Assembly (NCBI RefSeq): GCF_003334255.1
Contig: NZ_QOWU01000013.1
From: Escherichia coli
GTDB lineage: Bacteria > Pseudomonadota > Gammaproteobacteria > Enterobacterales > Enterobacteriaceae
Length of the DNA: 64,000 bases
Reading direction: 5' to 3' (one strand)
The notes below the pieces were generated by a model. That model was not told the origin of the DNA and ran no database searches. It saw only the letters and a program-made list of their open reading frames with translations. This document shows positions 45,971 through 46,135 of the stretch, in pieces. Position 1 is the stretch's first letter. Every line of letters starts with the position of its first letter. The position numbers were made by a program, and so were the translations under genes.

Positions 45971-46135
45971 TCACTCCACATCCTCCCTGCGTAACCCGAT
46001 ATCCCTCAACCGCTCATCACTCATCTGCTGTAACACCCGCCGGGCCTGCATTTGCCGCCGCCAACGCCTCACCGCCTGCCAGAGTTGCACGAAGCCGATA
46101 AACGGCGCGTTGGCTTTGTTTTCGTGAAATTCCAT
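45971..46135 (-). CDS. yjiS: DUF1127 small protein
   Basis: Not in the ORF track (54 aa): minus-strand ATG at 46135 after GAGGAGG RBS gives MEFHENKANAPFIGFVQLWQAVRRWRRQMQARRVLQQMSDERLRDIGLRREDVE. Confidence 0.8.
   Translation of the reverse strand: MEFHENKANAPFIGFVQLWQAVRRWRRQMQARRVLQQMSDERLRDIGLRREDVE

What the first reader, a model, noticed from the sequence alone, without database searches (positions are those of the whole stretch)
45971..46135. Small DUF1127 gene (yjiS) missing from the ORF track
A 54-codon minus-strand ORF with a strong GAGGAGG RBS encodes an Arg-rich DUF1127-type peptide. It falls below the track's length cutoff and would be overlooked; it also marks where this locus rejoins K-12 synteny.
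Basis: seen in the sequence. Interest (0 to 1): 0.35.

Follow-up and report, generated by a model that had tools for sequence, protein, structure and literature searches.

The report
Known small gene yjiS, correctly spotted

Summary
Window 45971-46135 (-) is an intact 54-codon ORF with GAGGAGG six bases before its ATG. It matches Pfam DUF1127 (E 3e-12). RefSeq annotates it as yjiS at these exact coordinates in E. coli ATCC 11775. About 69% of 5,426 complete E. coli genomes carry it.

It is a real protein gene. The frame is intact in about 66 of 70 species loci, the median dN/dS is 0.17, and codon position 3 varies about twice as much as positions 1 and 2.

Homology to K-12 resumes 5 nt past the stop codon. 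K-12 carries mcrBC and yjiT/V there, where this strain has symE.

Function is already published. E. coli YjiS binds the sensor kinase PhoR and damps pstS expression. Salmonella YjiS is a peripheral inner-membrane protein.

- yjiS is always paired divergently with the MocR-type regulator gene yjiR, across a 172-178 bp spacer that holds conserved CTGTAT boxes. This regulog was predicted in 2016 but is not mentioned in the two 2025 YjiS function papers.
- The two genes are lost together in about 31% of E. coli genomes.
- The "strong" ribosome-binding site is predicted to sit inside a hairpin.

Verdict: already known, low interest.

The parts
45971..46135 (-). yjiS coding sequence, 54 codons plus TGA; small Arg-rich DUF1127 (YjiS-like) protein
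   Evidence: ORF and translation. Pfam PF06568 E 3.3e-12. RefSeq CDS yjiS WP_000394277.1 at the same coordinates. Median dN/dS 0.17. AlphaFold2 mean pLDDT 84, helices at residues 11-37, 40-45 and 50-53.
46142..46148 (-). Shine-Dalgarno GAGGAGG (core AGGAGG 46142-46147), 6 nt before the ATG
   Evidence: Sequence. An SD-like core lies within -16..-5 in 64/64 distinct orthologous upstream regions, and is AGGAGG in 30 of them.
46141..46161 (-). Predicted hairpin GCCUCU(46161-46156)/GGAGGC(46146-46141) that would sequester the Shine-Dalgarno sequence
   Evidence: MFE -9.8 kcal/mol in the window. At least 4 SD bases are paired in 84% of 50 orthologous leaders, median z -2.1. 82% of cells are paired against 40-61% with slid partners; the covariation score was reached by 1 of 500 shuffles. 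The RNAalifold consensus is weak: 4 pairs, covariation term 0. Suggestive only.
46188..46196 (-). Conserved box TCTGTATTG (box 6), about 60 nt upstream of the yjiS ATG; candidate YjiR (MocR) half-site
   Evidence: At least 85% conserved across 68 loci. Found at the same distance from the ATG in independently retrieved distant loci L076, L078 and L083.
46208..46218 (.). Conserved AT-rich block TTAAATAAAAC between boxes 5 and 6; candidate overlapping -10 elements of the divergent yjiS and yjiR promoters
   Evidence: Conservation. Genomic SELEX in K-12 places sigma-70 RNAP binding in this spacer and proposes TTAACC-15-TAAAAG for yjiS and TTCACA-19-TTTTAT for yjiR (PMC3946193). The consensus scan here found no promoter in the spacer, so the start site is unresolved.
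46219..46227 (-). Conserved box (A/G)TCTGTATG (box 5), 30 bp upstream of box 6 as a direct repeat
46266..46278 (-). Conserved box AAACC(A/G)GTACAGA (box 3), opposite orientation to boxes 5 and 6
46285..46291 (-). Conserved box CATACAG (box 2)
46303..46310 (-). Conserved box CTGTAT(T/C)C (box 1), inverted relative to box 2; lies between the yjiR Shine-Dalgarno sequence and the yjiR ATG
   Evidence: Its conservation may partly reflect the yjiR translation-initiation region.
46312..47724 (+). yjiR, a MocR-type (GntR wHTH plus aminotransferase-like domain) regulator gene, divergent from yjiS
   Evidence: Best NCBIfam matches are MocR-like regulators, all below their cutoffs. RefSeq annotates yjiR. 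It lies divergently 172-178 bp from yjiS in every locus that retained upstream sequence and in 4 of 4 more distant YjiS-like loci with informative context.
45936..45966 (.). 3' boundary: GC-rich hairpin 45936-45962 between the convergent symE and yjiS genes, and the point (45966) where homology to K-12 resumes
   Evidence: Hairpin -18.5 kcal/mol (yjiS sense) and -15.5 kcal/mol (symE sense), with no U tract. K-12 and other strains begin to match at window 45961-45971.

Best explanation
This is yjiS, a genuine, annotated protein-coding gene. Its product is a 6.7-kDa, very basic protein made mostly of one long helix plus two short ones. It is the only DUF1127 protein reported for E. coli.

The most likely mode of action comes from published work, not from anything shown here. 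YjiS sits at the cytoplasmic face of the inner membrane and binds the sensor kinase PhoR. This holds down the Pho regulon (pstS) and phosphate uptake. In Salmonella the orthologue also associates with the kinase SsrA.

Inferred here: yjiS is transcribed from the 176-bp spacer it shares with the divergent gene yjiR. It is probably controlled by the PLP-dependent MocR-type regulator YjiR through five conserved CTGTAT/ATACAG-type boxes. Its translation may be limited by a hairpin that pairs the Shine-Dalgarno sequence.
For: Identity:
- The locus is 100% identical over yjiS to E. coli ATCC 11775, where the CDS is annotated as yjiS.
- It is 49/54 identical to K-12 YjiS.
- Pfam DUF1127 matches at E 3.3e-12.

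Coding:
- The frame is intact in about 66 of 70 species loci.
- Median dN/dS is 0.17, and third codon positions vary about twice as much as the others.
- An SD core is present in 64/64 leaders.
- Codons 4-6 vary freely at synonymous sites while the residues are kept.

Fold: AlphaFold2 pLDDT 84, helix 11-37.

Function (literature):
- An E. coli yjiS mutant has raised pstS transcript and faster phosphate uptake. YjiS interacts with PhoR in a two-hybrid assay and on a Far-Western blot. E. coli YjiS complements the Agrobacterium triple DUF1127 mutant (PMC12501420).
- Salmonella YjiS is translated (Ribo-seq, western blot). It is found in the inner-membrane fraction, is released by salt, and pulls down SsrA (PMC11707872).

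Regulation:
- yjiR lies divergently at 172-178 bp in all informative loci.
- Four exact CTGTAT sites fall within the 176-bp spacer, against 25 in the whole 64 kb on both strands.
- The boxes are at least 85% conserved and sit at fixed distances from the ATG.
- The two genes are absent together in about 31% of E. coli genomes.
- A 'YjiR - Enterobacteriales' regulog with target COG5457 was already predicted (PMC5320631).
Against: - No experiment on this allele or strain exists in what I could read. It differs from K-12 YjiS at 5 residues.
- The PhoR two-hybrid signal was seen in only one fusion orientation.
- In Salmonella, single Arg or DIGL substitutions gave no phenotype, so no interaction surface is defined.
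- CcaF1, a DUF1127 relative, binds RNA.
- YjiR binding to the boxes is untested. Box 1 overlaps the yjiR translation-initiation region.
- No promoter met the consensus scan in the spacer.
- Salmonella data point to SsrB-dependent transcription.
- Support for the hairpin is modest: RNAalifold covariation term 0.
- The pair is dispensable in roughly a third of E. coli genomes, and an EHEC yjiR deletion had no gut-colonisation defect.
Confidence: 0.8

Rival explanations
1. YjiS acts mainly as a small RNA-binding protein, like Rhodobacter CcaF1. Its Arg-rich helices would bind transcripts and change their processing or stability, and the Pho phenotype would be indirect.
For: The family is the same and the protein is very basic: 10 Arg, pI 11.1. 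CcaF1 binds RNA and can still complement the Agrobacterium phosphate phenotype (PMC8034643).
Against: No CcsR/Cuckoo-type or other RNA family lies next to yjiS; Rfam found only SymR, which belongs to symE. The Salmonella study found no evidence of RNA interaction and mostly membrane-protein partners. Purified E. coli YjiS and PhoR interact directly on a Far-Western blot.
Confidence: 0.12
2. The real product is the 59-aa form that starts at the upstream in-frame ATG at 46150 (MRRQQMEFHEN...).
For: The ORF lister extends the frame to that ATG. One database cluster carries a 59-aa version (P0001).
Against: The -15 codon is ATG in only 6 of 64 distinct orthologous leaders and is not a start codon at all in 38. 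That ATG overlaps the Shine-Dalgarno sequence and has none of its own. Conservation begins sharply at the annotated ATG. RefSeq and the literature use 54 aa.
Confidence: 0.03
3. yjiS is a functional component of the adjacent defence/'immigration control' island, for example a partner of symE or of the type I R-M system, rather than a housekeeping regulator.
For: It abuts symE and a type I R-M cassette, and sits exactly at the island boundary.
Against: The downstream neighbours differ between species and strains: symE, yjiT, ClpP-like, DUF1176 and others. The yjiR partnership is constant. There is no PADLOC match. In ST1193 the R-M/symE island is present without yjiS.
Confidence: 0.03
4. The ORF is a chance open frame, or the locus works only as RNA.
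For: It is short (54 codons), and NCBIfam has no model for it.
Against: dN/dS is 0.17 and variation follows codon positions. Pfam matches. The SD is conserved. The orthologue is translated and detected as protein in Salmonella. An E. coli mutant has a phenotype and the purified protein was used in assays.
Confidence: 0.01

Closest known systems
E. coli K-12 YjiS (b4341), DUF1127 / Pfam PF06568 'YjiS-like'
   Same: It is the orthologue: 49/54 identical residues, the same length, the same Shine-Dalgarno sequence, the same divergent neighbour yjiR and a spacer that aligns without gaps.
   Different: Five substitutions: K7R, N9K, F15L, A31T, R44K. Downstream, K-12 has the yjiT/yjiV remnants and mcrCB before symE, whereas here symE converges directly on yjiS.
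Salmonella Typhimurium YjiS (PMC11707872)
   Same: A 54-aa orthologue with an Arg-rich DUF1127 C-terminus and a hydrophobic-faced N-terminal helix. It shows that such a protein is translated and is peripheral to the inner membrane.
   Different: Its described role (SPI-2 co-expression, SsrA/B interaction, delayed macrophage escape) depends on a system that E. coli lacks.
Agrobacterium tumefaciens small DUF1127 proteins SDP1-3 acting on PhoR (PMC12501420)
   Same: The domain is the same. E. coli YjiS complements the triple mutant's pstS phenotype and binds its own PhoR.
   Different: Only about 24% similar. The SDPs are shorter and lack the MEFHEN... N-terminal extension. Agrobacterium has several paralogues, E. 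coli one.
Rhodobacter sphaeroides CcaF1 (RSP_6037), an RNA-binding DUF1127 protein (PMC8034643)
   Same: DUF1127 domain, small and Arg-rich.
   Different: CcaF1 is co-transcribed with CcsR sRNAs from an RpoHI/HII promoter and binds RNA. No such RNAs flank yjiS, and identity to YjiS is about 20%.
MocR-family regulons: the 'YjiR - Enterobacteriales' regulog with target COG5457 (Suvorova & Rodionov 2016, PMC5320631)
   Same: A divergent regulator-target pair, with boxes built on a TGT core arranged as mixed direct and inverted repeats. This is the most common MocR operator layout.
   Different: The regulog is a computational prediction only. The effector of YjiR is unknown, and I could not see the published motif to compare it with the boxes mapped here.
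MgrB and SafA, small-protein modulators of the sensor kinase PhoQ
   Same: The logic is the same: a protein of about 50 aa binds a histidine kinase and tunes a two-component system.
   Different: MgrB and SafA are integral membrane proteins that act on the periplasmic domain. YjiS has no transmembrane-length hydrophobic segment (sequence; helix 11-37 is amphipathic). The Salmonella orthologue is released from membranes by salt.

Membership tests
DUF1127 / YjiS-like (Pfam PF06568) | Significant match to the family HMM over its full length | tested here: met
   E 3.3e-12, 46.4 bits, residues 18-54 against model positions 1-37 of 37.
DUF1127 / YjiS-like (Pfam PF06568) | Small protein with high Arg content and the conserved D-I/V-G-L motif | tested here: met
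   54 aa with 10 Arg (18.5%). D45-I46-G47-L48 are present; G47 and L48 are invariant or nearly so in the alignments.
Enterobacterial yjiS orthologue group | Conserved position: divergent from yjiR across a spacer of about 175 bp, with high identity to K-12 YjiS | tested here: met
   91% identity to K-12. The yjiR start lies 176 bp from the yjiS ATG here and 172-178 bp elsewhere.
Enterobacterial yjiS orthologue group | Under purifying selection as a protein | tested here: met
   Median dN/dS 0.17, all 398 pairs below 1.
PhoR-binding DUF1127 regulators (Remme et al. 2025) | Direct binding to PhoR and repression of pst expression | not testable with these tools
   Shown for K-12 YjiS in PMC12501420. 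Not shown for this allele.
YjiR (MocR) regulog member | Conserved repeat boxes in the shared upstream region, co-occurring with the regulator gene | tested here: met
   Five boxes are at least 85% conserved in 68 loci. The layout recurs in independently retrieved loci. The two genes are absent together in about 31% of E. coli genomes.
YjiR (MocR) regulog member | YjiR binds the boxes and changes yjiS transcription | not testable with these tools
   Only a computational prediction exists (PMC5320631).
CcaF1-type DUF1127 / sRNA operon | Co-transcribed Cuckoo/CcsR-type sRNAs downstream of the DUF1127 gene | tested here: not met
   A permissive Rfam scan of 44000-48500 found only SymR, which belongs to symE. 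The sequence downstream of yjiS differs between strains.
MgrB/SafA-type membrane small proteins | [quoted passage not shown] | tested here: not met
   The longest uncharged stretch is about 12 residues (PFIGFVQLWQAV), and the predicted helix 11-37 is Arg-rich in its second half. The Salmonella orthologue is released by salt.

The most novel reading that the evidence does not exclude
yjiS may be the dedicated output gene of the orphan PLP-dependent MocR regulator YjiR, read out through the CTGTAT-box operator and an SD-masking leader hairpin. An as yet unknown amino-compound or vitamin-B6 signal would then be relayed through the small protein YjiS onto the sensor kinase PhoR, and onto SsrA in Salmonella. 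This would link two literatures that do not cite each other: the 2016 MocR regulon predictions and the 2020-2025 DUF1127 function papers. It would also give YjiR its first target and YjiS its first physiological input.
Probability: 0.35. Interest if true: 0.4.

Novelty: already known. Interest (0 to 1): 0.12.

Why it matters
As a gene call it matters little, because yjiS is annotated and has a published function. The practical lesson is that a 60-aa ORF cutoff hides real, functional small proteins.

The context is the more useful part. The yjiR-yjiS pair, its conserved operator-like boxes and the masked ribosome-binding site give concrete, cheap experiments. These could identify what turns yjiS on in E. 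coli, and so what signal feeds into PhoR through this small protein. The function papers I read do not address that question.

Tried and rejected
- NCBIfam: no model matches YjiS.
- PDB by sequence profile: only chance-level hits, E about 0.6. Foldseek of the AlphaFold model against PDB: nothing. No solved relative exists.
- PADLOC: nothing for YjiS, only weak aminotransferase-fold hits for YjiR. The defence-island idea was dropped.
- Rfam: only SymR near the locus. The snoRNA-like hits at 46133-46174 are far below their gathering scores.
- Consensus promoter/terminator scan: no promoter in the yjiR-yjiS spacer and no intrinsic terminator after yjiS. The transcription start and end remain unresolved.
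- The CTGTAT boxes resemble LexA half-sites, but no pair has the CTGT-N8-ACAG spacing (sequence). The UV tiling-array paper concerns transcripts beyond yjiS, not yjiS itself.
- RNAalifold on the leader gave only a 4-pair consensus with no covariation term, because the arms shift register between genera. The hairpin is kept only as a suggestion.
- The invariance of the N-terminus MEFHEN is partly circular, because the locus search used MEFHEN[KR] as a pattern. The unbiased library search shows MEFYEN, MEFNEN, MGFYEN and MQVFEN variants, and a form (MESLWRAIK...) that lacks this N-terminal segment.
- Context look-ups that gave nothing: P0203 is not on record; P0155 has no DNA; the gene upstream of P0244 is not MocR-like.

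Full report
WHAT IS THERE

The minus strand of window 45971-46135 is an ATG-to-TGA frame of 54 codons. It encodes MEFHENKANAPFIGFVQLWQAVRRWRRQMQARRVLQQMSDERLRDIGLRREDVE. GAGGAGG occupies 46148-46142, six bases before the ATG. The protein has 10 Arg in 54 residues, pI 11.1 and a mass of 6.7 kDa. Pfam DUF1127 (PF06568, now named 'YjiS-like') matches residues 18-54 over the whole model at E 3.3e-12.

The ORF lister misses the frame at its default 60-aa cutoff. At a lower cutoff it shows a 59-aa ORF that starts at an upstream ATG at 46150.

WHERE IT COMES FROM AND WHETHER IT IS KNOWN

The 382 bases around the gene are 100% identical to E. coli ATCC 11775 / DSM 30083. RefSeq annotates exactly this CDS there as yjiS, a DUF1127 domain-containing protein, WP_000394277.1. 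A 19-kb stretch is also 100% identical to strain G1/2. The gene is found in 3,740 of 5,426 complete E. coli genomes and is nearly always annotated. It is hidden only by a length-filtered ORF list, not by current annotation.

IS IT A REAL GENE?

I retrieved 70 loci from one genome per species. They span Escherichia, Citrobacter, Klebsiella, Raoultella, Kluyvera, Enterobacter, Franconibacter, Pectobacterium, Pantoea, Erwinia and others.

- The frame is intact, at 53-63 codons, in about 66 of the 70. The exceptions are Citrobacter koseri NCTC10786 (frameshifted) and three Tatumella loci with degenerate C-termini.
- Nei-Gojobori dN/dS has a median of 0.17 over 398 informative pairs, and every pair is below 1.
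- Summed column entropy is 33, 24 and 62 for codon positions 1, 2 and 3.
- An SD-like core precedes the ATG in 64 of 64 distinct leaders.
- The upstream ATG at 46150 is not conserved. It is ATG in 6 of 64 leaders and not a start codon at all in 38. The 54-aa form is therefore the product.

The apparent invariance of the N-terminus MEFHEN in this set is partly an artefact, because MEFHEN[KR] was one of the search patterns. An unbiased profile search of 1.8 billion representatives finds YjiS-like proteins that begin MEFYEN, MEFNEN, MGFYEN or MQVFEN. Within the set, codons 4-6 vary freely at synonymous sites, so the constraint acts on the protein.

AlphaFold2 with a 38-sequence alignment gives mean pLDDT 84. 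It predicts a long helix at residues 11-37 and two short helices at 40-45 and 50-53. There is no solved relative by sequence or by fold.

SYNTENY CLAIM

In K-12, read in the orientation of this window, the order is hsdR-hsdM-hsdS, symE, mcrB, mcrC, the yjiV/yjiT remnants, yjiS, yjiR. Here the order is brnTA, a restriction-endonuclease pseudogene, hsdM-hsdS-hsdR of a different type I system, symE, yjiS, yjiR. The K-12 match begins at window 45966, five bases beyond the yjiS stop codon. In other strains the match begins at 45961, 45967 or 45971.

So yjiS is the first gene of the conserved flank of the variable restriction ('immigration control') region. Sibley and Raleigh (2004) is the source the DUF1127 papers cite for YjiS. 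One nuance is that symE is also shared with K-12. The difference is the roughly 7.6 kb between symE and yjiS, plus the R-M cassette.

The flank itself is not universal. About 31% of complete E. coli genomes lack both yjiS and yjiR:
- Strain 167 has an IS1 element in place of everything between brnTA and mdtM.
- ST1193 lacks yjiS, yjiR and mdtM.
- Strain PAR keeps only the 3' half of yjiS.

An EHEC study had already classed yjiR as an accessory gene.

HOW IT MOST LIKELY WORKS

This rests on the literature.

- Remme et al. 2025 (PMC12501420) report that an E. coli yjiS mutant has raised pstS transcript and faster phosphate uptake. YjiS interacts with PhoR in a two-hybrid assay (one fusion orientation only) and on a Far-Western blot with purified proteins. 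E. coli YjiS also restores pstS control in an Agrobacterium mutant lacking its three small DUF1127 proteins.
- Venturini et al. 2025 (PMC11707872) show that Salmonella YjiS is translated only under SPI-2-inducing conditions. It fractionates with the inner membrane but is released by salt. It pulls down mostly inner-membrane proteins, including the kinase SsrA. Its loss increases flagellar gene expression and intracellular load. No single Arg or DIGL residue is essential.

The best-supported mechanism is therefore a peripheral-membrane small protein that binds sensor kinases and damps their output. The rival is RNA binding, as shown for Rhodobacter CcaF1. It is less likely here. No associated sRNA genes flank yjiS, and the PhoR interaction was seen with purified proteins. 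None of this was tested for the present allele, which differs from K-12 at five residues.

WHAT THE CONTEXT ADDS

In every locus with upstream sequence, a MocR-type regulator gene (GntR wHTH plus aminotransferase-like domain; yjiR) lies divergently. Its start codon is 172-178 bp from the yjiS ATG. The same holds for four more distant YjiS-like genes retrieved without reference to the N-terminal motif. One of them lacks MEFHEN altogether. What lies downstream of yjiS varies freely.

Alignment of the spacer from 68 loci shows five blocks that are at least 85% conserved:
- CTGTAT(C/T)C at 46310-46303
- CATACAG at 46291-46285
- AAACC(A/G)GTACAGA at 46278-46266
- (A/G)TCTGTATG at 46227-46219, followed by TTAAATAAAA(G/C)
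- TCTGTATTG at 46196-46188

Exact CTGTAT occurs 25 times in the whole 64 kb on both strands, about what shuffles give. Four of those 25 lie in this 176-bp spacer. The boxes keep their distances from the ATG (about -137, -90 and -60) in the independently retrieved loci.

A TGT core and mixed direct and inverted repeats are what comparative genomics found for MocR operators. Suvorova and Rodionov (2016, PMC5320631) already list a 'YjiR - Enterobacteriales' regulog whose target is COG5457. They remark that this YjiS-related gene is frequent in MocR regulons.

The pairing is therefore a known prediction, not a discovery. However, neither 2025 function paper nor the CcaF1 paper mentions the regulator: the two 2025 papers contain no yjiR, MocR or GntR, and the CcaF1 paper has no GntR or aminotransferase hit. 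No paper in the searchable library contains both 'MocR' and 'DUF1127'.

In C. koseri NCTC10786 both genes carry frameshifts. This is consistent with functional coupling, but it could also be assembly error.

Genomic SELEX places RNA polymerase sigma-70 binding in the K-12 spacer. A simple consensus scan finds no promoter there, so the start site is open.

A SECOND SMALL POINT

The leader is predicted to fold so that GCCUCU (46161-46156) pairs with GGAGGC (46146-46141), which is the Shine-Dalgarno sequence.

- The MFE is -9.8 kcal/mol here. At least four SD bases are paired in 84% of 50 orthologous leaders, with median z about -2.1.
- For the six named pairs, 82% of cells are paired, against 40-61% when the partners are slid. 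The covariation score is reached by 1 of 500 shuffles.
- Several genera show arms that changed together, for example CGUCUC/GAGACG, CCUCAC/GUGAGG and AAGCUCC/GGAGCUU.
- RNAalifold finds only a 4-pair consensus with no covariation term, because the register shifts between genera. The controls also have known weaknesses for related sequences.

I treat this as a lead. The 'strong RBS' may be masked, which would fit the tight condition-dependence of YjiS production in Salmonella.

VERDICT

The observation and the interpretation are both correct. The object is an already annotated gene with a published, if still incomplete, mechanism. Novelty: already known. Interest is low. The most novel reading not excluded is that YjiR senses a PLP-linked metabolite and relays it through YjiS to PhoR. 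I put this at about 0.35, and it would be of moderate interest if shown.

Noticed in passing
window 46136-46311 (yjiR-yjiS spacer) and 46312-47724 (yjiR): yjiS is always paired divergently with the MocR-type regulator gene yjiR, at a near-fixed 172-178 bp. The spacer carries five conserved CTGTAT/ATACAG-type boxes at fixed distances from the yjiS ATG. This was predicted as a regulog in 2016 (PMC5320631), but the two 2025 YjiS function papers and the CcaF1 paper do not mention the regulator.
   Followed up: yes
window 46141-46161 (-): A predicted hairpin pairs the yjiS Shine-Dalgarno sequence (GGAGGC) with an upstream GCCUCU. It recurs in most Enterobacteriaceae leaders, with some arm changes on both sides. 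Formal covariation support is modest.
   Followed up: partly
window 45520-45929: This is a symE/SymR type I toxin-antitoxin pair. The symE CDS lies at 45591-45929 (+) (NCBIfam PRK13605, 218 bits). The SymR antisense RNA lies at 45520-45596 (-) (Rfam RF01809, 95 bits). symE converges on yjiS with a 41-bp gap.
   Followed up: partly
window 45936-45962: A GC-rich hairpin (-15 to -18 kcal/mol) lies between the convergent symE and yjiS genes, with no U tract on either strand. It lies in the segment that is not shared with K-12 at this position. Whether it terminates either transcript is unknown.
   Followed up: partly
E. coli genomes; loci L073, L074, L075: About 31% of 5,426 complete E. coli genomes lack both yjiS and yjiR. 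Examples are an IS1 element replacing everything between brnTA and mdtM (strain 167), loss of yjiS-yjiR-mdtM in ST1193, and a 5'-truncated yjiS in strain PAR. The 'conserved flank' of the restriction island is itself accessory.
   Followed up: partly
window about 37000-45376 (L001 3086-11447): Upstream of symE lie a brnT/brnA toxin-antitoxin pair, a restriction-endonuclease pseudogene with an internal stop, and a type I R-M system in the order hsdM-hsdS-hsdR. That system differs from K-12 EcoKI. The RefSeq coordinates of hsdR are offset by 1 bp relative to the window, so the window is not base-for-base the ATCC 11775 record between hsdR and symE.
   Followed up: no
proteins P0150, P0155, P0161, P0124: The representative library holds many proteins of 200-300 aa with two to four tandem DUF1127-like repeats, and one of 1,923 aa with 14 matched stretches. 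Their organisms and functions were not examined.
   Followed up: no
L066 (Citrobacter koseri NCTC10786) 4400-6170: Both yjiS and yjiR are broken by frameshifts in this assembly. This is either joint decay of the pair or sequencing indels.
   Followed up: partly
L076-L078, L081-L082: In several other genera the genes downstream of yjiS are a ClpP-like protease and/or DUF1176 proteins. Dickeya has a second, weaker DUF1127 gene about 260 bp downstream of the first.
   Followed up: no
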